This document shows, piece by piece, positions 5,255 through 61,450 of a DNA stretch of 64,000 nt. The notes beneath the pieces were generated by a model. It was not told the origin of the DNA. It made no database searches and worked only from the letters and a program-made list of their open reading frames with translations. The DNA is from a virus. Lineage: Duplodnaviria; Heunggongvirae; Uroviricota; Caudoviricetes. How positions within the stretch are numbered: position 1 is the stretch's first letter; every line of letters starts with the position of its first letter. The DNA is taken from IMG/VR virus record IMGVR_UViG_3300031555_007715, one strand, 5' to 3'. The translations under genes were made by a program, and so were the position numbers.

Positions 5255-6034
5255 TTACTTTTTTAACTTTTCAATTTCTTCTTTTAATAATGCAATTTCT
5301 CTATCCTTCTCTTCTAAAAGAAGTGCCTGCTTATCGAGAATTGTTTCAGTCGCCTCTGTTAAGCTTAAAATCTTACTTTTGATTATTGTTATTGCGCCAG
5401 AAAGTTCAGGATAATTTTGTTTTCCGTAAGTGCATATTCCTGTTTTTCCGATAAAATAATCACGAGTTTCTTTTATATACTTAGGAATATTTTTCATGTT
5501 GTATAAATCTTCAACATTATGACTTCTATCTGCTAATTTTACAAGAAGGGCAAACTTATTCTTTTTGATGTTGTTGAAATATGAATTTAGCTCATATTCA
5601 TCTGCCCCAGTATGTTTACTAAGCAATTTTATCGTTTCTCCGACTATTGGTGGGAATCCATAATCTTGTTCATATTCAATTCCGCCTTTTGGAAAATATT
5701 CTTCTGCATCTTCTAATGTGTCATGTAAAAGGGCACATGTATACAAAATATCTAAGTCTTCATCGCTCATTTGAATATCAAGAGACATTAACGTTGAGCA
5801 TACTTTTAATACATGAAGAACATACGGCAAGTGAACCATTTGGCCATTTACTTCTACTTCCCCTTTTCGATATTGTCCATTATGCATTTTTCTTGCTAGG
5901 GGAAGTGCTTTTAATGTGTACTTAAATTTTCTGCCAGTTGCATAGCCCTTGACAAACAAATATGTTTTGCTATACAAATACTCCTCTTCTACATTGTAAC
6001 ATTCGACAATAGGACGTAATATTTTTTCACTCAT
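5255..6034 (-). CDS. HD-domain protein, RelA/SpoT-type (p)ppGpp hydrolase-like (Mesh1/SAH-like)
   Basis: H.GQ.RK, PY..H, ALLHDTLED, VKLADR.HN motifs; no synthetase domain. Confidence 0.8.
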   Translation of the reverse strand: MSEKILRPIVECYNVEEEYLYSKTYLFVKGYATGRKFKYTLKALPLARKMHNGQYRKGEVEVNGQMVHLPYVLHVLKVCSTLMSLDIQMSDEDLDILYTCALLHDTLEDAEEYFPKGGIEYEQDYGFPPIVGETIKLLSKHTGADEYELNSYFNNIKKNKFALLVKLADRSHNVEDLYNMKNIPKYIKETRDYFIGKTGICTYGKQNYPELSGAITIIKSKILSLTEATETILDKQALLLEEKDREIALLKEEIEKLKK

Positions 6035-7620: not shown

Positions 7621-7654
7621 AAAACACTATTAAGTTTTTTCTTAATAGTGTTTT
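7621..7654. terminator. Terminator closing the tRNA operon
   Basis: 14-bp inverted repeat AAAACACTATTAAG/CTTAATAGTGTTTT. Confidence 0.75.
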
Positions 7655-7826: not shown

Positions 7827-7855
7827 ATTATATCATTTGAATATTAAATAGTCAA
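7827..7855 (-). promoter_or_regulatory. Internal sigmaA promoter for the last two tRNAs
   Basis: TTGACT-17-TATAAT with TG extension. Confidence 0.7.
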
Positions 7856-7879
7856 GAGATATTAGTTACTATATATAAG

Positions 7880-7953
7880 TCGGAACGGGGGGAATCGAAC
7901 CCCCGACCACCCGCTTATCAGACGGGCATTCTAAACCGCTGAACTACATTCCG
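7880..7953 (-). tRNA. tRNA-Ile (GAT)
   Basis: Cloverleaf, loop CT-GAT-AA, A73. Confidence 0.93.
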
Positions 7954-7956
7954 TTA

Positions 7957-8104
7957 AGCAAATGCTGTGGATTTGAACCACCTCTTTGATATTAGTCCTT
8001 TAACATGTCTAGAATATTAAATTATAATACCAAATTACATTCGTTCCTATCGACCTTAATAGAGGTTCTAGAATTTCTATTAAGATACATTGAATGAGCA
8101 TTGC
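7957..8104 (-). ncRNA. tRNA-like ncRNA (148 nt) with T-arm, acceptor-like stem and two enlarged arms
   Basis: GTGG-TTCAAAT-CCAC T-arm; GCAATGCT/AGCATTTGC closing stem with one bulge; internal stems with G-U pairs; 2-3 nt from flanking tRNAs. Confidence 0.55.
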
Positions 8105-8106
8105 AG

Positions 8107-8179
8107 TAGGGAAAAGGGGATTTGAACCCCTGACCACCCGCTTATCAGACGGGCATTCTAACCACTGAACTACTTCCCT
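8107..8179 (-). tRNA. tRNA-Ile (GAT)
   Basis: Cloverleaf, loop CT-GAT-AA. Confidence 0.93.
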
Positions 8180-8183
8180 AAAA

Positions 8184-8257
8184 TACCTGCAAAGGGACTT
8201 GAACCCTTAACCTTATGCTTATGAAACATATGCTCTCACCATTTGAGCTATACAGGC
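8184..8257 (-). tRNA. tRNA with CAT anticodon (elongator Met or Ile2; not initiator)
   Basis: Cloverleaf, loop TT-CAT-AA; lacks the three G-C pairs of initiator anticodon stems. Confidence 0.85.
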
Positions 8258-8263
8258 TTAATT

Positions 8264-8413
8264 AAAAATAAAGGAGAAAAACGGGATTGATGTTGTCTGT
8301 ATGACAGTTTATAAGACTGTTGCCTTACCATTTGGCTATTTCGCATTCTGCTGCAAAAATGGGAGTCGAACCCATATATCGATGTAATCAATACCTACAC
8401 AACCTTTATTTTT
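8264..8413 (-). tRNA. Circularly permuted tRNA-like gene, anticodon TAT (3' half 8351-8380 precedes 5' half 8304-8345)
   Basis: T-arm ATGGG-TTCGACT-CCCAT, then TTTTGCA-G, 5-nt spacer CAGAA, then TGCGAAA-TA-GCC..GGC D-arm and ACAGT-CTTATAA-ACTGT; acceptor halves pair 7/7; 11-bp flanking inverted repeat. Confidence 0.62.
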
Positions 8414-9687: not shown

Positions 9688-9716
9688 ATAATAACATATA
9701 AAAAGATTTTTGTCAA
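9688..9716 (-). promoter_or_regulatory. sigmaA promoter for small ORF and tRNA operon
   Basis: TTGACA-17-TATTAT with TG extension. Confidence 0.75.
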
Positions 9717-13378: not shown

Positions 13379-14242
13379 TTAGCTTTTTAATGCTTTTTGA
13401 CAGAGACTAATTGCCGCTTCTTTTGTGTTTGCTGCACACATAAATAATGAAGAATGACAGAAGACTGCGTCTTTAATACCGCACTCTTTTTCCAATTCAT
13501 CATTTCGGAGACCAGCCCAATTATAAGGAAAATCCTTTTTGGCAACTGGCGACTTGTATTCCGCAGGAACAACCTGCGCGTTCCAACCGCCTCTTGATGA
13601 TGGATATACTACATATATTGCGGATGTTTCAATTAATGTTTCTTTCCACGGAAGGCTTTTCTCTAATACAATGATTTCTTTGTCATCAGATTCATCAAAT
13701 GTCTTTTTTACATATTTTGATGCTTCAACGTTGGCTTCTTCTTTTTTTATTACTCTCTTTAAAATTGCAATAGCAACTTCTACTGCGGAGTTAAATCTTT
13801 TATCATTTTCGCTTTCATATACTTCTAAATCAGAAATATTTTCTTTTTCTAACCATGTAAAGTTAAAAGAAGCAACAATGTCTGAATACGAATTTGAATA
13901 ACCAAAGTTATCAGATTCATCAAGGGGCTGAATAAATTTTTCATCAATGTTATAAATCACCGCTGGACTACTAACAATAAGATGTGAAAATTCTCTCCAG
14001 AGAAGCCCAAATGAAGCATATTTTTTGCCATTATCTCTGTATTCTGCATCAAACTGATGATGGTCAAATTTTCCCCCACCAATATCAAAGATAAGACAAT
14101 CACTGTTGATGTTACAAATATCGTTTTTTCTAATGATATTGATATCTGGGTTAATTAGTTTTAATAAAGCCGCGGAGAAAACATCGTCGGCATGAAATGT
14201 ACCTGCATGAGTACATGCTAATTTATAATTAAACTTTGTCAT
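13379..14242 (-). CDS. MYG1 (UPF0160) family exonuclease
   Basis: THAGTFHADDV, DIGGGKFDHHQ, ASFGLLW and FCHSSLF motifs. Confidence 0.9.
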   Translation of the reverse strand: MTKFNYKLACTHAGTFHADDVFSAALLKLINPDINIIRKNDICNINSDCLIFDIGGGKFDHHQFDAEYRDNGKKYASFGLLWREFSHLIVSSPAVIYNIDEKFIQPLDESDNFGYSNSYSDIVASFNFTWLEKENISDLEVYESENDKRFNSAVEVAIAILKRVIKKEEANVEASKYVKKTFDESDDKEIIVLEKSLPWKETLIETSAIYVVYPSSRGGWNAQVVPAEYKSPVAKKDFPYNWAGLRNDELEKECGIKDAVFCHSSLFMCAANTKEAAISLCQKALKS

Positions 14243-24036: not shown

Positions 24037-24573
24037 TTACTCAGTTTCAATAAGTCCATACCCGCCGTCGTTTCTAGTGTATATCATACAATGGGTATTT
24101 GTTAATTTGTTTAAGAAGATATATGATTCATGACCGAGTTCTTCCATTTTGTTAATTGCTTCTTCTGGTGTAACAGGTTCTAATTTAACTGTTTTTACCT
24201 TTGTTATGATTTCTTGGTTCATAAATTCTTTTTCTTCAACCTCAAAATCATATTCCATTGCATTAAGAACTTTTGCTTGGTCTTTTTGTTTTTTAACTTT
24301 TTTTGTATGTAATTTTTCGAATTTTTCTTTCATTCTATCAGCAACGTCACTGATTATAGTGTAGTAATCGTCACCTGTTTGTGTAATTTTTACTAATGTA
24401 TCTTCATACATAATCATTGTACATACATTTATTTCTTTTTTGACAACTTTGACAGATATCTTGATTACATCTGATTCGTTTAGAAACTTGTTTAGAACAT
24501 TCAACCTTTCTATTGTTGCCTGCTTCATTCCTTCTGTAATCTTCATGCTTTTTGAATTAATTTTAATATCCAT
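24037..24573 (-). CDS. hpf: Ribosome hibernation promoting factor (long HPF/RaiA family)
   Basis: MDIKI..K.MKITE N-terminus; C-terminal PVTPEEAI.KMEELGH..YIF...YTRNDGGYGLIE. Confidence 0.88.
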   Translation of the reverse strand: MDIKINSKSMKITEGMKQATIERLNVLNKFLNESDVIKISVKVVKKEINVCTMIMYEDTLVKITQTGDDYYTIISDVADRMKEKFEKLHTKKVKKQKDQAKVLNAMEYDFEVEEKEFMNQEIITKVKTVKLEPVTPEEAINKMEELGHESYIFLNKLTNTHCMIYTRNDGGYGLIETE

Positions 24574-24761
24574 ATAGATACCTCCATTGTTTTGTTTTTG
24601 TACTTTTATTATATCATATTTCGAAACAACAGTAAATATAATTTTAAAAAATAAATCTAAAAAATTTTTGAAAATTATATAGACAAAGCACTTAAAATGT
24701 GGTATAATATATTTATGTTCCATTGGTAACTATTATGATTTTTAAACGAAGGAGTGATATT

Positions 24762-43705: not shown

Positions 43706-44368
43706 TTAGGCTATAATAATAGGCTTAAAACCTAACTGGTCAGATGCTATACAACGAAATTCTATACCTTCATACATTCCTTCTACCGCATCATTTATTG
43801 CTTCTCCGTGTAAATGTCCATAATATACTTTTTTAATTCCATATTCCTTAAATATGTTTAAGAATGTATCGAATTGATAGTCTTTATAAACAGGAGGATA
43901 ATGCATAAATACAATTTTGTTATCTGATGTAGCACAACATATTGATTGAATTAATCTATTCGCCTCTCTATCTATAATTACTTTATCTTCATCAGATGTT
44001 GCTTTTATATCCCAACCTCTTGTTCCACAAATTGAAATCCCATCTATATTAATAGAATCATACTGTAAAAAAGATATTGAACTATAAATATCAAATAATT
44101 TTTTTAGCTTGCTTTTTGAGTTCCACCATAAGTCGTGATTTCCTTTTAATAATACTTTGTGTCCCTTTAAGCTTTGTAAAAATTCAATATCGCAAATAAG
44201 TTCATCAATTTTTAATGCCCATGATAAATCGCCAGGCATAATAATATAATCATCATCGGTAAGACACCAATTCTCTCTTATCTTTTCAACGTGATTTTCC
44301 CAGCCGAACATATTCATGTCTTTATTAAGAGATGAGGGCAAGTGAAAATCAGACATAGCATATATCAT
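43706..44368 (-). CDS. Calcineurin-like metallophosphoesterase
   Basis: SDFH, PGDLSW, GNHD.WW, HYPP, YGHLH. Confidence 0.9.
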   Translation of the reverse strand: MIYAMSDFHLPSSLNKDMNMFGWENHVEKIRENWCLTDDDYIIMPGDLSWALKIDELICDIEFLQSLKGHKVLLKGNHDLWWNSKSKLKKLFDIYSSISFLQYDSINIDGISICGTRGWDIKATSDEDKVIIDREANRLIQSICCATSDNKIVFMHYPPVYKDYQFDTFLNIFKEYGIKKVYYGHLHGEAINDAVEGMYEGIEFRCIASDQLGFKPIIIA

Positions 44369-44384
44369 AGTTACATCTCCTTCT

Positions 44385-45017
44385 TTATATTTCACTATTC
44401 TTTAGTGCATTTTTTTCTATTTTTGAAAAGCTCCAATGTTTATCTGTTTGAACATGATTTTCTCTTACATACTTTGCTACGGAAAGAGGAAATTCTTCAT
44501 ACTTAAAAGAATCCATAAGACGAACAACTATTCCCTCTCCACCTCTTTTAACAACATCCTCAGCTATCTTTTTTACTGTTTTTGAGTCATAAATTCCCTT
44601 ATATAAAACAGGGACAGTATTTATTTTCAAGTTTTTGCAAAAAGCCTCAGTATCTTTCCATGATAAACAGCAATTATTGTTCCAAACAGAGAATGCCAAA
44701 AAGAAAGATGGTAATTCACTATAACCAATAGAGTGTTTTGCATACAAATATTCTCCGCAAATTCTATATTCATCGGGTATAGAATACATGAAATTTTGCA
44801 TATATCCAATAAGCCATGAGTGATATGGTTTGTTAGATGAGTCTATACTTCTTGCATGAAATCCGTTGTTATATATAGAGGTATTTTCTCCGTCCATTTT
44901 TTCAGTTATGACCACATTTTTGCCAATAAAATGATTGTCGTTTTCTAATACTTTATCGTCTGATGTATACCCTCTGGAAAACGGCAAGTGAAAAGTTCTT
45001 GGATATTTATAACGCAT
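44385..45017 (-). CDS. ATP-dependent RNA ligase family protein
   Basis: KYPRT.HLP, EKMDGEN (motif I), GEYL, EGIVVR, KYVR. Confidence 0.85.
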   Translation of the reverse strand: MRYKYPRTFHLPFSRGYTSDDKVLENDNHFIGKNVVITEKMDGENTSIYNNGFHARSIDSSNKPYHSWLIGYMQNFMYSIPDEYRICGEYLYAKHSIGYSELPSFFLAFSVWNNNCCLSWKDTEAFCKNLKINTVPVLYKGIYDSKTVKKIAEDVVKRGGEGIVVRLMDSFKYEEFPLSVAKYVRENHVQTDKHWSFSKIEKNALKNSEI

Positions 45018-50924: not shown

Positions 50925-50970
50925 GAAAATGCATCCGATATCCTGTTTTTAAACAAAACATCGAATGCAT
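50925..50970 (-). terminator. Terminator-like hairpin 3' of the ROOL-like RNA
   Basis: ATGCATTCGAT/ATCGGATGCAT stem with minus-strand G-U pair, then TTTTC. Confidence 0.65.
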
Positions 50971-50980
50971 ATCAAACAAA

Positions 50981-51563
50981 TATAGATTCAGACCTTCGTC
51001 TTATTCCTCGCTAATTCTCATTTCTTCGGCCACTGTGCAAACAAGTCTGAGCCAATAATTCGTCAACTATTAACTTCTTGCCTGAACCTTTCGGTTATAA
51101 TCACAAAGAGGATTGGTTACCTCTAAATTTCACAAACCATTCAGATAATTTTATTATAGAAAAAGTAAATCATTTCTCTTCGTTAATTTATTTTCTTCTA
51201 TCTAAGAATGTTATCTTAAGCATGTCTTTGCTACTTTTACTTGGCTCTTACCTTATAGTATGTTTCCATACATCACGACATATCCCATTGTTTGGTGTTC
51301 CCAGCGTTTTCACTATTTTACCAGAATAGGGCTACTGGGTTCTTCTCTTCACGAGCGTCTATTGTTGGGACGGTAAGTTCAATGCCTTAATGAGCTCAAC
51401 AAAGATACACAAAGCCTTTTTGTTGAGGGGTTCCCCTCTTCTCATCATTACTCACATAATGATGACAGCTCTCTCCTTCAAGTATCCTTAAAAGCATTTA
51501 CTGTTATTCAGCCTTTCTCGGAAGGAGTGGTTAGCTCCCTTATGCACCGAGGTGAATCTGTAT
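50981..51563 (-). ncRNA. ROOL-like large ornate RNA (about 580 nt)
   Basis: Ends pair (AGATTCA/TGAATCT); length matches ROOL; blocks such as GCCAAGTAAAAGTAGCAAAGAC, CTGAATGGT, GGCTCAGACTT..GCACAGT recalled as ROOL-like. Confidence 0.75.
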
Positions 51564-51572
51564 TGTAGATAT

Positions 51573-51601
51573 ATAATATCATTTAATATTGTTTTTGTCA
51601 A
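51573..51601 (-). promoter_or_regulatory. Strong sigmaA promoter for the ROOL-like RNA
   Basis: TTGACA-17-TATTAT with TG extension. Confidence 0.8.
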
Positions 51602-53593: not shown

Positions 53594-54304
53594 ATGCAAA
53601 ACATGTTTATGATTCCAGATAACAACTGGGATTTTATTAATAAAGAGAAAAATAAAGAATTATTAAAAATATATGATGCAATAAAAAATGATGGATTTTT
53701 TCCTCATGAAGATAATGTTTTACGTTTTTTAAAGATGGATTTCAATAATATAAAATATGTAATTATGGGAATGGAACCTTATCCGTCTTCATATACTGTT
53801 AATAATATATTGTTTCCTGAGGCAACGGGCAGAAGCTTTGAAGTTTCTAGTATGATTAATAAAACGTGGCAAGACAAGTTTAAGCAAAGTTCTTTAAGAA
53901 ACATATTAAAGACTATTTATTATAATGAAGAGGGAGTAATAATACCATTAGATTCAATAAGAAAGAAAATTGCTAATAAGGAGTTTATTATAGCTGCACC
54001 TAGTGAATGGTTTAATTCACTAGAAAAACAAGGAGTTTTATTTTTGAATGCAACTTTGACAGTAAAGCCAGGCGTTGTTGCGTCTCAAACGATATACTGG
54101 AAAAGTTTTATGCAGGATTTAATAATTCATATAAATGAAAAATCTGATGCTAAATGGTTTTTATGGGGTAATGATGCAAAAAATGCGGTACTTCCGTATG
54201 TTGATGAAAAGAAATGCATTATTACATGTCATCCCAGATTAGCTCAGTTTGTTGATGAAAATTGTTTTCAATATGCAAAGGATATTGATTGGAAAGGAGT
54301 ATAA
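53594..54304 (+). CDS. Uracil-DNA glycosylase family 1-like protein (variant motifs)
   Basis: GMEPYP (vs GQDPY), SLRNI, QGVLFLNATLTV, F.LWG, HPR. Confidence 0.8.
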   Translation: MQNMFMIPDNNWDFINKEKNKELLKIYDAIKNDGFFPHEDNVLRFLKMDFNNIKYVIMGMEPYPSSYTVNNILFPEATGRSFEVSSMINKTWQDKFKQSSLRNILKTIYYNEEGVIIPLDSIRKKIANKEFIIAAPSEWFNSLEKQGVLFLNATLTVKPGVVASQTIYWKSFMQDLIIHINEKSDAKWFLWGNDAKNAVLPYVDEKKCIITCHPRLAQFVDENCFQYAKDIDWKGV

Positions 54305-54306
54305 AA

Positions 54307-55008
54307 ATGAATTATTTTATTACAGGTGATATTCATGGCAAATTAGATAAGTTGATAGAATTTAAAGAAAAGTTCAAGAACACCATGGATTTTAATAACG
54401 TTACAGTTATTATATTAGGAGACTGTGCTTTTAATTTCTATTTAAATAAAACGGATAGGAAAAGAAAAACAGAGGCAAATGCATTAGGATTTACTATTTT
54501 AAATATAAAGGGTAATCATGAATTGCATGCAGACAAAATTGATTCATATAAAATGAAACAATGGAACGGAGCGCCTGTTTATTATGAAGAAGAATTTCCA
54601 AACTTACTTTTTGCAAAAGATGGTGAAATTTATGAGTTAAATGATAAAAAAGTATTTGTTATGGGGGGAGCTTATTCTGTAGATAAATATTATAGAATAT
54701 TAAGAGGATGGACCTGGTTTGATTCAGAACAGCCCGATGAGGATACAAAAAAATTTGCTATAGAAAATTTAGAAAAGAATAATTGGAACGTTGATGTTGT
54801 CTTAACTCATACTGCCCCTTTAAAAGCTGAGCCAGTACATTTATTTCTTAGTCAGATAGACCAAAGTACTGTTGATAAAACAACGGAGATTTTTCTTGAT
54901 GATATTTCTAACAAGTTAAAATTTGATAGATGGTATTTTGGACATTATCATGGCGAGTGGGATTTTGACAAATATCATTTAATGTTTAATTCTTGGGTTG
55001 AACTATAA
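54307..55008 (+). CDS. Metallophosphoesterase
   Basis: GDIHG, LGD, GNHE, GGA.S.D, TH, WYFGHYH. Confidence 0.9.
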   Translation: MNYFITGDIHGKLDKLIEFKEKFKNTMDFNNVTVIILGDCAFNFYLNKTDRKRKTEANALGFTILNIKGNHELHADKIDSYKMKQWNGAPVYYEEEFPNLLFAKDGEIYELNDKKVFVMGGAYSVDKYYRILRGWTWFDSEQPDEDTKKFAIENLEKNNWNVDVVLTHTAPLKAEPVHLFLSQIDQSTVDKTTEIFLDDISNKLKFDRWYFGHYHGEWDFDKYHLMFNSWVEL

Positions 55009-60581: not shown

Positions 60582-61319
60582 TTAAAGAACTTCTAATGCG
60601 TTTTTAAATACAAATTTGTTTCTATTACACTCCCTATCGGTTCCCTTATTTACAACTATTTGTTCTTTTACGGTTGCAACACCGTAAATGTAATTAGGGT
60701 TTATATCATCAATATTAATACCTTTATCTAACAACATTTGCTTCATTTCAATAAGCTTTTTATTCTTCAATTCTTTATGAGAAAAATGACTTCTGGCAAC
60801 CATTTGAATAGCATTCTTTTCACAGTCTAAACATCTCCAAATAAATACTTCCATAGGGTCATCATCATAATTAAATACACGGCAATCAAAAATAGCTTTG
60901 AAATACTTTTTACGATAAAATTCGGGGGTGTCACTTTTTTCACCAATTTCAAAAAGGTATTCATTAAAAGCAACACTTGCGGTAGCAGCCATTTCTGAAA
61001 CAATTTTCTGAATACGACCAGAAAACATAATTTCACTTTCATCAGACATTTTCTTAAAATAAACAGTAATCTCATCTGATTGAGTATATCCCATTACTGT
61101 TCCTTGCACTTCATTACAGACCCTAAGCATTGTCTTTTTCATTACTTCTCTTAATACGTCATCAAAAGGTGTTTTAAATCCTTTTGTGAATTTACTGAAT
61201 CTTTTGCCATCAAGACGAATAAAGCAGTCTTTATTTACATCTATATAAGCTTCGGAACTCCGTTCACACATTTTTATCTTTTTTGCAAGTTCTCTCTCTG
61301 AGTAATTTTTAAATCTCAT
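60582..61319 (-). CDS. Thg1-like (tRNA-His guanylyltransferase family) 3'-5' polymerase
   Basis: RLDGKRFSKFT, YTQSDEI, FSGRIQK, FDCR, WR..DC..NA. Confidence 0.9.
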   Translation of the reverse strand: MRFKNYSERELAKKIKMCERSSEAYIDVNKDCFIRLDGKRFSKFTKGFKTPFDDVLREVMKKTMLRVCNEVQGTVMGYTQSDEITVYFKKMSDESEIMFSGRIQKIVSEMAATASVAFNEYLFEIGEKSDTPEFYRKKYFKAIFDCRVFNYDDDPMEVFIWRCLDCEKNAIQMVARSHFSHKELKNKKLIEMKQMLLDKGINIDDINPNYIYGVATVKEQIVVNKGTDRECNRNKFVFKNALEVL

Positions 61320-61450
61320 ATTATCATCTCCTTTGTTTATGTTAATGATATTATACCACATTTTATGTTATTTTTCAAGAGTTAATATTGACTATTTTAG
61401 AATATTGTGATACAATAATAACATAATAAACACAAGAAGGAGATGAATAT

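What the first reader, a model, noticed from the sequence alone, without database searches (positions are those of the whole stretch)
7957..8104. 148-nt tRNA-like RNA with two palindromic UCUAGA loops, wedged between two tRNA-Ile genes
It has a canonical T-loop (UUCAAAU) and an acceptor-like stem with one bulge. The D- and anticodon-arm positions are replaced by two long helices (AUCUUAAUAGA/UCUAUUAAGGU; UUGGUAUUA/UAAUAUCAA enclosing UUUAAUAU/AUGUUAAA), each using G-U pairs that favour the minus strand. Both apical loops contain the self-complementary hexamer UCUAGA (8008-8013, 8067-8072), which could form intra- or intermolecular kissing loops. The 2-3 nt spacing to neighbours suggests it is cut out by normal tRNA processing. 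It may be a tRNA mimic or decoy, or a multimerising RNA.
Basis: partly seen in the sequence, partly recalled or inferred. Interest (0 to 1): 0.7.

Follow-up and report, generated by a model that had tools for sequence, protein, structure and literature searches.

The report
Self-locking tRNA-shaped phage RNA gene
The 148-base element is a real, conserved non-coding RNA gene built on a tRNA frame, with two long extra arms whose tips can pair with each other; I found it in two unrelated-looking large gut phage-like genomes, and its function is still unknown.

Summary
On the minus strand (8104 to 7957) lies a 148-nt tRNA-shaped RNA, 2-3 nt from a tRNA-Ile gene on each side, inside a 15-tRNA array. 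ARAGORN and Rfam do not call it.

A covariance model built from this one sequence found a full-length homologue. It lies in a complete 290-kb IMG/VR jumbo phage, between tRNA-Gly and tRNA-Leu, with no shared neighbouring proteins. The two RNAs are 57% identical. They keep 97.9% of pair cells, with 18 of 49 pairs changed on both sides.

The most conserved parts are:
- the T arm (17/17);
- a D-loop-like core (A14 A15 ... GGAAC);
- CUAG in both apical loops.

tRNA numbering holds up to nucleotide 15. After that a ~42-nt hairpin sits in the D loop, and the anticodon arm is replaced by a ~50-nt arm.

The palindromes themselves are not conserved. What is conserved is six Watson-Crick pairs between loop 1 and loop 2 (UCUAGA/UCUAGA here, GCUAGA/UCUAGC in the homologue). 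That is one compensatory change in favour of a loop-loop kiss.

Best reading: a stable tRNA-derived RNA cut out by tRNA-processing enzymes and locked, or multimerised, by that kiss. I found no expression data and no third clade. The scan has noted similar tRNA-shaped phage RNAs on other DNA.

The parts
7957..8104 (-). Whole 148-nt tRNA-shaped RNA gene. RNA position p corresponds to window coordinate 8105 - p.
   Evidence: Fold. CM self-hit of 184.9 bits and a homologue hit. No ARAGORN or Rfam call.
8097..8104 (-). Acceptor stem, 5' strand (G1-C7) plus U8.
   Evidence: Pairs with 7958-7966. Six of 8 pairs are changed on both sides in the homologue.
8090..8096 (-). C9, D-stem 5' strand (A10-C13), A14 and A15. 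Canonical tRNA numbering holds up to here.
   Evidence: Read from the sequence. The block UCAAU is identical in the homologue. The model also aligns a canonical tRNA-Cys D arm here.
8048..8089 (-). Hairpin of about 42 nt inserted in the D loop: 3 bp, a bulge, then 11 bp, with the 12-nt loop 1 at 8064-8075.
   Evidence: helix 3: 4 pairs changed on both sides. Strain variants change A19-U52 to G-C and U20.G51 to U-A.
8067..8072 (-). Loop 1 kissing hexamer UCUAGA. The homologue has GCUAGA.
8038..8047 (-). D-loop remnant GGAAC (candidate G18 G19 elbow residues) plus the D-stem 3' strand GAAUG.
   Evidence: AUAGGAACGA is identical in both homologues. The role in the elbow is inferred.
7985..8034 (-). 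Arm 2 at the anticodon-arm position: 10 bp, a 3x4 internal loop, 8 bp, and the 7-nt loop 2 at 8007-8013.
   Evidence: helices 4 and 5: 6 pairs changed on both sides.
8008..8013 (-). Loop 2 kissing hexamer UCUAGA. The homologue has UCUAGC.
7966..7982 (-). T arm GGUGG-UUCAAAU-CCACA. It can be read as a 5-bp stem with a G.A mismatch, or as a 4-bp stem with A65 pairing to U8.
   Evidence: 17 of 17 positions are identical in the homologue.
7957..7965 (-). Acceptor stem 3' strand with bulged U at 7962, and discriminator U at 7957. No CCA is encoded.
8106..8179 (-). Upstream tRNA-Ile(GAU), 2-nt spacer.
7879..7953 (-). Downstream tRNA-Ile(GAU), 3-nt spacer.
9688..9716 (-). Promoter-like site upstream of the array (TTGACA-17-TATTAT with a TG extension).
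   Evidence: This is a consensus match only.
7621..7654 (-). Terminator-like hairpin followed by a T run, at the end of the array.

Best explanation
This is a conserved non-coding RNA that evolved from a tRNA gene.

Maturation (inferred): it is transcribed within the polycistronic tRNA-array precursor. Because it keeps an acceptor stem, U8, a D stem, an A14-A15/GG D-loop core and a perfect T arm, it should be released like its neighbours: RNase P at the 5' end, RNase Z or exonucleases at the 3' end, then CCA addition. The product would be a stable species of about 150 nt.

Shape (partly shown): the decoding half is replaced by two arms of similar length, a hairpin inserted in the D loop and a lengthened anticodon-position arm. 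Their apical loops form a 6-bp kissing helix, loop 1 with loop 2. That helix either clamps the two arms into a closed, rigid shape within one molecule or joins molecules head to tail.

Function (guess): it cannot decode. The acceptor sequence and the discriminator base are not conserved, so specific charging is unlikely. The most likely role is a tRNA-mimicking binder, a decoy or scaffold for a protein that recognises the tRNA elbow and acceptor end, in genomes that invest heavily in tRNA supply and repair.

Shown: the fold, its conservation, covariation in all long helices, and loop-loop complementarity in both homologues. Inferred: processing, the elbow, the kiss in vivo, and the function.
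For: 1. Structure. The independent MFE folds of the two homologues give the same architecture.

2. Covariation. On the model alignment 97.9% of cells pair and 18 of 49 pairs are changed on both sides. Partner-slid controls give 35-50% paired and 0-3 such pairs, and 0 of 500 shuffles reach the observed values. Acceptor covariation also appears in a sequence-only MAFFT alignment.

3. Conservation pattern. Unpaired columns are more conserved (68%) than paired columns (52%). The identical blocks are UCAAU, CUAGAA, AUAGGAACGA, UCUAG and the 17-nt T arm.

4. Different contexts. The homologue lies in another tRNA slot (Gly/Leu rather than Ile/Ile), with 3- and 7-nt spacers. BLASTP of the first 20 kb of the window against the 14.7-kb homologue locus L107 found no shared protein.

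5. Loop pairing. Loop 1 and loop 2 form 6 Watson-Crick pairs in both RNAs. The flanking pair changes from U-A to G-C. Loop shuffles reach 6 pairs in 0.2% and 1.0% of trials. Self-pairing of each loop drops to 4 nt in the homologue.

6. Strain variants. Contigs from two other metagenome runs carry linked changes that keep helix 1: A19-U52 to G-C, and U20.G51 to U-A.

7. Genomic context. The window encodes an RNA ligase, phosphoesterases, a Thg1-like enzyme and MYG1. In the jumbo phage the flanking genes are a YqeY-like protein and a phosphoesterase.
Against: - Only two clades were found, so the kissing interaction rests on a single compensatory event plus a conserved self-complementary CUAG core.
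- There is no evidence of transcription or of discrete ends.
- X8 carries one change (A48 to U) that breaks a pair in helix 1.
- A related array (L210, ATP-grasp neighbour 58% identical) has 15 tightly packed tRNAs and no copy, so the RNA is dispensable for some relatives.
- If the tRNA elbow forms, simple helix lengths do not obviously let the D-loop hairpin reach the tip of arm 2 within one molecule unless arm 2 bends at its internal loop. That favours an intermolecular kiss.
- No partner protein is identified.
Confidence: 0.6

Rival explanations
1. Multimerising RNA. The RNA would then form closed dimers, rings or chains that display several tRNA-like ends.
For: - The covariation cannot tell an intramolecular kiss from an intermolecular one.
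- In ROOL, a kissing loop first read as a tertiary contact from covariation proved to be quaternary (PMC12286853).
- The same window encodes a ROOL RNA.
- If the D-loop/T-loop elbow forms, the two tips are hard to bring together within one molecule. This point is inference.
Against: - The two arms are of near-equal length in both homologues (about 19 and 18 bp). That suits side-by-side arms clamped within one molecule if the four-way junction is not tRNA-like.
- There are no biophysical data.
Confidence: 0.22
2. An oversized tRNA gene with removable intervening sequences, of the kind reported as 'enigmatic introns' in Lak megaphage tRNAs. The inserts would be excised and the halves sealed, perhaps by the element's own RNA ligase, to give a working tRNA.
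For: - Devoto et al. 2019 (PMC6784885) report conserved introns in oversized tRNAs of gut megaphages.
- tRNA numbering is canonical up to nucleotide 15.
- The window encodes an RNA ligase and phosphoesterases.
Against: - ARAGORN with introns allowed finds no tRNA in either homologue, even after the D-loop hairpin is removed in silico.
- No 5-bp stem with a U33-containing 7-nt anticodon loop can be drawn at the base of arm 2.
- Both inserts evolve under pairing constraint, with conserved and mutually complementary loops. A spliced-out spacer would not need that.
Confidence: 0.06
3. A dead tRNA gene hit by two small mobile hairpin insertions, that is, selfish DNA with no RNA function. Earlier scan notes describe such elements in other genomes.
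For: - Earlier notes on other genomes describe tiny hairpin modules that land in tRNA loops (e1-1928567, e1-1916198).
- The two loops share the 8-mer AUUCUAGA.
Against: - ATTCTAGA has no other copy in 64 kb.
- The model finds only one copy in the window and one in the 290-kb phage.
- The two stems are unrelated to each other.
- The whole element keeps its lengths and carries 18 compensated pairs at 57% identity.
Confidence: 0.05
4. DNA-level signals: the palindromes act as protein-binding or restriction-type sites in double-stranded DNA, not as RNA loops.
For: - TCTAGA is a DNA palindrome and is depleted in the window.
- A promoter-like match lies on the plus strand at 8000-8028.
Against: - The hexamer palindromes are not conserved in the homologue. 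GCUAGA and UCUAGC are complementary to each other but are not palindromes.
- About ten G-U pairs are strand-specific.
- The element has an acceptor stem and T arm and sits in register within a tRNA array.
Confidence: 0.03

Closest known systems
Phage T4 stable RNAs, species 1 and species 2 (rnaC, rnaD).
   Same: Stable RNAs of about 120-140 nt and unknown function. They are encoded inside a phage tRNA gene cluster and matured with the tRNAs by host tRNA-processing enzymes.
   Different: There is no sequence model to test membership. I know of no report of a D-loop hairpin insertion or of mutually complementary apical loops in them. The host group also differs: T4 infects a Gram-negative host, while this element comes from a low-GC gut element.
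YrlA-type bacterial and phage Y RNAs (Rfam RF02553; Chen et al. 2014, PMC4201824)
   Same: Non-decoding RNAs that mimic the tRNA acceptor/T/D module. Their D and T stems are nearly invariant. M. smegmatis YrlA is cut by RNase P and receives CCA. A YrlA-like permuted tRNA mimic lies 160 nt away in the same array (e1-5447089).
   Different: In Y RNAs the 5' and 3' ends form a Ro60-binding stem, and the tRNA module is internal or permuted. Here the ends form the acceptor stem itself. RF02553 gives no hit on the element even at E up to 10. None of the window ORFs scanned against Pfam matched the Ro60 (TROVE) family.
   Same: A phage RNA of similar size, with two loops in one molecule that are complementary to each other and covary.
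   Different: pRNA has no tRNA-like module, is not in a tRNA array, and pairs 4 nt rather than 6. There is no Rfam hit. Its packaging role belongs to small phi29-like phages.
Oversized 'intron-containing' tRNAs of Lak megaphages (Devoto et al. 2019, PMC6784885)
   Same: tRNA-array genes in large gut phages that are longer than a tRNA and carry highly conserved inserted sequence.
   Different: Those are called as tRNAs with a single anticodon-loop intron by tRNAscan in eukaryotic mode. This element has two inserts, has no recoverable anticodon arm, and is not called even with introns allowed.
ROOL and GOLLD ornate RNAs (PMC12286853)
   Same: Phage RNAs encoded near tRNA islands whose architecture depends on kissing loops. 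One ROOL copy is in this window.
   Different: They are four to six times larger, have no tRNA frame, and are proven to form multimeric cages. Nothing of that kind is shown here.

Membership tests
Canonical tRNA (Rfam RF00005) | Detected by tRNA gene finders or the covariance model. | tested here: not met
   ARAGORN finds 15 tRNAs but not this element, and still none with introns allowed. RF00005 gives no hit even at E up to 10.
Canonical tRNA (Rfam RF00005) | 7-bp acceptor stem, U8, and a T arm with a UUCRANY loop. | tested here: met
   The acceptor stem has one bulged U in the window and none in the homologue.
Canonical tRNA (Rfam RF00005) | D arm with A14, R15 and G18 G19 in an 8-11-nt loop. 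| tested here: inconclusive
   The D stem, A14 A15 and a GGAAC remnant are present and invariant. However, a 42-nt hairpin interrupts the loop. Whether the elbow forms was not tested.
Canonical tRNA (Rfam RF00005) | 5-bp anticodon stem with a 7-nt loop, U33 and an anticodon; total length 70-95 nt. | tested here: not met
   Arm 2 has 18 bp plus an internal loop. Its loop is UCUAGAC here and UCUAGC (6 nt) in the homologue. The lengths are 148 and 149 nt.
YrlA / Y RNA (RF02553) | Match to the family model. | tested here: not met
   No RF02553 hit overlaps 7957-8104 at E up to 10.
YrlA / Y RNA (RF02553) | Ro60/Rsr gene nearby. | tested here: not met
   No TROVE-domain protein appears among the window ORFs scanned. 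The rest of the genome was not available.
phi29-type pRNA | Match to the Rfam pRNA model. | tested here: not met
   No Rfam hit.
phi29-type pRNA | Two loops of one molecule that are complementary to each other and covary. | tested here: met
   Six Watson-Crick pairs in both homologues, with one compensated flank. This shows a resemblance in how the RNA may work. It does not show membership.
T4 species 1/2 stable RNAs | Sequence or structure homology. | not testable with these tools
   No model or reference sequence was to hand. blastn of both homologues against 50,697 phage records found nothing.
Mobile mini-hairpin insertions in tRNA loops | Multiple dispersed near-identical copies. | tested here: not met
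   ATTCTAGA occurs only in the two loops within 64 kb. The model gives single hits in the window and in the 290-kb phage.

The most novel reading that the evidence does not exclude
The RNA is a self-assembling unit. Heterotypic loop 1 to loop 2 kisses join molecules head to tail into closed rings or dimers that display several CCA-tailed tRNA top halves. That would be a small, tRNA-based cousin of the pRNA ring and the ROOL/GOLLD cages, used by large gut phages to capture or organise tRNA-binding enzymes or ribosomes.
Probability: 0.15. Interest if true: 0.85.

Novelty: new variant of a known kind. Interest (0 to 1): 0.55.

Why it matters
Phage tRNA arrays are now read as tools against host tRNA-targeting defences and for codon supply. 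The non-tRNA genes hidden in them are hardly catalogued, because tRNA finders skip them.

This element shows a tRNA gene rebuilt into a different machine. The half recognised by processing enzymes is frozen: the T arm and D-loop core are invariant. The decoding half is replaced by two arms that appear to lock onto each other.

If the kiss is real, this is a compact and tractable model for how long-range loop-loop contacts shape natural RNAs, small enough for probing and cryo-EM. It is also a candidate phage decoy or scaffold for tRNA-binding proteins.

It also gives a second, testable reading of the oversized 'intron-containing' tRNAs reported in gut megaphages.

Tried and rejected
- **Sequence searches with no homologue.** blastn of the element against phage records, blastn of the homologue against phage records, and blastn against plasmids.
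- **First IMG/VR patterns.** An exact T-arm/acceptor 25-mer and an Ile-gap-Ile pattern found nothing.
- **Loop plus T-loop pattern.** It gave one chance hit in coding DNA (L006).
- **Mis-set gap.** One IMG/VR scan used the wrong gap range (35-65 instead of about 29-31), so it could not find the family. The corrected pattern and a stricter one recovered only the G001 phage. The other 41 loci did not match the model.
- **Weak hits L143 and L156** (E about 0.4, GC 55%) have an acceptor/T-arm clamp. Their interior does not fold better than shuffles (z = 0.3 and 1.6), so I did not count them as members.
- **GTDB pattern scan.** It returned 47 loci and none is a homologue. The two best are archaeal tRNA-like genes.
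- **Protein anchors.**
  - The 144-aa neighbour is an orphan.
  - ATP-grasp relatives gave identical copies (L001, L003), a truncated array (L007) and an array without the element (L210).
  - HD-hydrolase relatives gave 86 loci without a further homologue.
  - Phosphoesterase relatives of the G001 neighbour gave identical copies or unrelated contexts.
- **Other jumbo phage records** (G002, G004, G005, G006) had no hit.
- **Expression.** The one RNA run laid (X20, contigs only) has no cover over 7940-8258. This says nothing either way.
- **Alignment check.** A sequence-only MAFFT alignment with RNAalifold recovers only the acceptor stem, the T arm and part of arm 1, because the helices have diverged. 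The full comparison therefore rests on the model-guided alignment plus the two independent MFE folds.
- **Intron reading.** Tested with ARAGORN -i and not supported.
- **Whole-genome tools.** No genome is held for this window.

Full report
**What is there**

The window carries a minus-strand array of 15 tRNA genes (9401 to 7657), found by ARAGORN and Rfam. Most are 4-11 nt apart. A promoter-like site lies at 9716-9688 and a terminator-like hairpin at 7654-7621.

Between two tRNA-Ile(GAU) genes lies a 148-nt stretch (8104 to 7957, minus strand) that neither program calls. No Rfam family matches it even at E up to 10. No ORF of 80 aa or more overlaps it.

- an acceptor stem with one bulged U;
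- a T arm, GGUGG-UUCAAAU-CCACA;
- an 11-bp hairpin with a 12-nt loop;
- a 9-10 bp plus 8 bp arm with a 7-nt loop.

The MFE is -32.7 kcal/mol (z = -2.7), and none of 200 shuffles folds as well. Both loops contain UCUAGA. TCTAGA is depleted in the window (7 copies against about 16 expected). The octamer ATTCTAGA occurs only twice in 64 kb, both times in these loops.

**Closer anatomy**

Canonical tRNA numbering holds exactly up to nucleotide 15: acceptor 1-7, U8, C9, D stem 10-13, A14, A15. A ~42-nt hairpin then begins. After it come GGAAC and the 3' strand of the D stem.

The 'D arm' is therefore not replaced. It is a D arm with a hairpin inserted in the variable part of its loop, and it keeps a GG that could play the part of G18 G19 (inference). 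Arm 2 sits where the anticodon arm belongs, but it has about 18 bp and an internal loop. The covariance model built from the element also aligns a normal tRNA-Cys through the acceptor, D-stem and T-arm columns, which fits a tRNA origin.

**Where it comes from**

No genome is held for the window. Identical copies occur on JGI metagenome contigs, and the neighbouring ATP-grasp protein occurs on contigs up to 135.7 kb.

Near-identical DNA is in animal faeces and gut metagenomes, including a bovine gut run that I laid.

Other content of the window:
- a ROOL RNA;
- PcfJ-like proteins;
- an RNA ligase and phosphoesterases;
- a Thg1-like enzyme and a MYG1 protein;
- a RelA/SpoT-type HD hydrolase;
- an HPF-like protein.

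It is a large, low-GC (about 30%), uncultivated phage-like element.

**Homologue**

Sequence searches found nothing.

I then used the HD hydrolase as an anchor to collect related large-phage records. Next I searched whole IMG/VR records with a covariance model built from the single sequence. This gave one full-length hit: 36.8 bits, E about 6e-7, in a complete 290-kb jumbo phage (IMGVR_UViG_3300032167_003270, 234864-235012).

- The hit lies in that phage's tRNA region, between tRNA-Gly(UCC) and tRNA-Leu(UAG), with 3- and 7-nt spacers.
- Its neighbours are a YqeY-like protein and a calcineurin-like phosphoesterase.
- BLASTP of the ORFs of the first 20 kb of the window against those of the 14.7-kb homologue locus found no shared protein.
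- Its own MFE fold has the same architecture: an 8-bp acceptor stem, a D-stem-like helix, a 13-bp hairpin with a 12-nt loop, a 9+9-bp arm with a 6-nt loop, and a 4-bp T stem with UUCAAAU.

**Covariation**

The two RNAs are 57% identical. Paired columns are less conserved (52%) than unpaired ones (68%).

On the model-guided alignment:
- 97.9% of pair cells are standard pairs;
- 18 of 49 pairs differ on both sides;
- sliding the partners by 1-3 columns gives 35-50% pairing and 0-3 such pairs;
- no shuffle of 500 reaches the observed values.

With only two sequences and a model-fitted alignment these numbers lean towards the structure. However, the independent folds agree, and the acceptor covariation also appears in a sequence-only alignment.

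The identical blocks are UCAAU (D stem/A14 A15), AUAGGAACGA (end of the inserted helix, the GG remnant and the D stem), the whole 17-nt T arm, CUAGAA in loop 1 and UCUAG in loop 2. The acceptor sequence and the discriminator base (U against G) are not conserved. That argues against a fixed aminoacylation identity.

**Strain-level variation**

Contigs from two other metagenome runs carry four linked changes at the base of the inserted hairpin. They convert A19-U52 to G-C and U20.G51 to U-A, and the 11-bp helix is kept in the folds. One of the two also has a change that breaks one pair.

**The loops**

The six-letter palindromes are not the conserved feature. In the homologue, loop 1 carries GCUAGA and loop 2 carries UCUAGC. 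Each self-pairs over only 4 nt, but the two are exact complements over 6 nt, as the two UCUAGA loops are here.

The flanking pair has changed from U-A to G-C. Shuffled loops reach 6 consecutive pairs in only 0.2% and 1.0% of trials.

This is one compensatory event in favour of a loop 1 to loop 2 kiss. It is suggestive, not proof.

It cannot tell an intramolecular clamp from head-to-tail association. The ROOL case, where a 'tertiary' kissing loop turned out to be quaternary, is a warning (PMC12286853). The two arms are of near-equal length in both homologues, which suits a clamp. If the tRNA elbow forms, geometry favours an intermolecular contact.

**Alternatives**

- *Intron-containing tRNA.* This is the reading given to oversized tRNAs of Lak megaphages (PMC6784885). 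It is not supported here. ARAGORN with introns allowed finds nothing, even after the D-loop hairpin is removed in silico, and no anticodon stem-loop can be drawn.
- *Mobile mini-hairpin insertions.* These are described in earlier notes of this scan for other genomes. They do not fit: there are no other copies and the inserts evolve under pairing constraint.
- *A DNA-level role for the palindromes.* This does not survive their loss in the homologue.

**Limits**

I found no third clade despite pattern scans of IMG/VR and GTDB genomes, model searches of about 2 Mb of fetched loci, and several protein-anchored look-ups. A related array (L210) lacks the element.

There are no usable expression data. 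Function is unknown. I commit to a processed, stable tRNA mimic whose arms are locked by a kiss and which binds a tRNA-recognising partner, at about 0.6 for the structural and maturation part and much less for the decoy or scaffold role.

The scan has reported comparable tRNA-shaped phage RNAs with self-complementary or mutually pairing loop tips on other DNA (e1-175084, e1-5318359, e1-3496500). This is therefore a new variant of an emerging kind rather than something without precedent.

Noticed in passing
window 50970-51575 (-): Full-length ROOL RNA (RF03087, 322.5 bits), about 43 kb from the tRNA array.
   Followed up: no
window 8264-8413 (-): A second non-tRNA gene in the same array. Rfam gives a borderline tRNA hit at 8272-8345 (30.5 bits), followed by a T-arm-like hairpin.
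   Followed up: no
window 5255-6034 (-); loci L017, L026-L029, L034, L035, L092, L095: The RelA/SpoT-type HD hydrolase (some sources name it 'GTP pyrophosphokinase') has hundreds of relatives at 58-97% identity. In many large-phage contigs it lies beside tRNA arrays and a tmRNA gene. This may indicate a tRNA-protection role.
   Followed up: partly
L028 / L092 1994-2108 (+): A 115-nt tRNA-shaped RNA in a 394-kb jumbo phage: 7-bp acceptor stem, a hairpin with a 12-nt loop at the D-arm position, a short GAGA-capped arm and a T arm. z = -4.4. It abuts a suppressor tRNA(UUA). It gives a weak model hit (E 0.02) and has no CUAG loops.
   Followed up: partly
L041 7480-7586 (+): A 107-nt tRNA-shaped RNA with a 6-bp/4-nt D hairpin and a greatly lengthened anticodon-position arm. 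z = -3.6. It lies 7 nt upstream of tRNA-Trp. Model E = 0.005.
   Followed up: partly
L107 3872-3946 (-): The tRNA-Leu(UAG) just downstream of the homologue has the anticodon stem CUAGA/UCUAG, the same letters as the two loops of the RNA next to it. This may be coincidence.
   Followed up: no
L143 2577-2741 (-), L156 5818-5982 (-): 165-nt elements closed by an acceptor/T-arm clamp and containing GGAACG, in two ~158-kb GC-rich IMG/VR records near tRNA-Met. The interior does not fold better than shuffles. Their identity is unresolved.
   Followed up: partly
window 43706-45017, 54289-55008, 60582-61361, 13379-14242, 24037-24723: An RNA ligase (PF09414) with an adjacent phosphoesterase, a second phosphoesterase, a Thg1-like enzyme, a MYG1 exonuclease-like protein and an HPF/S30AE-like ribosome hibernation factor. 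Together these form an RNA repair and translation toolkit.
   Followed up: partly
window 7827-7855 (-): A strong promoter-like site (TTGACT-17-TATAAT with a TG extension) lies in the 74-nt gap before the last two tRNAs. It suggests an internal start within the array. This gap also holds 5 of the 11 strain differences seen in run X7.
   Followed up: no
L210 174-1566 (-): A related array (ATP-grasp neighbour 58% identical) holds 15 tightly packed tRNAs, including a single tRNA-Ile, and no copy of the element.
   Followed up: yes
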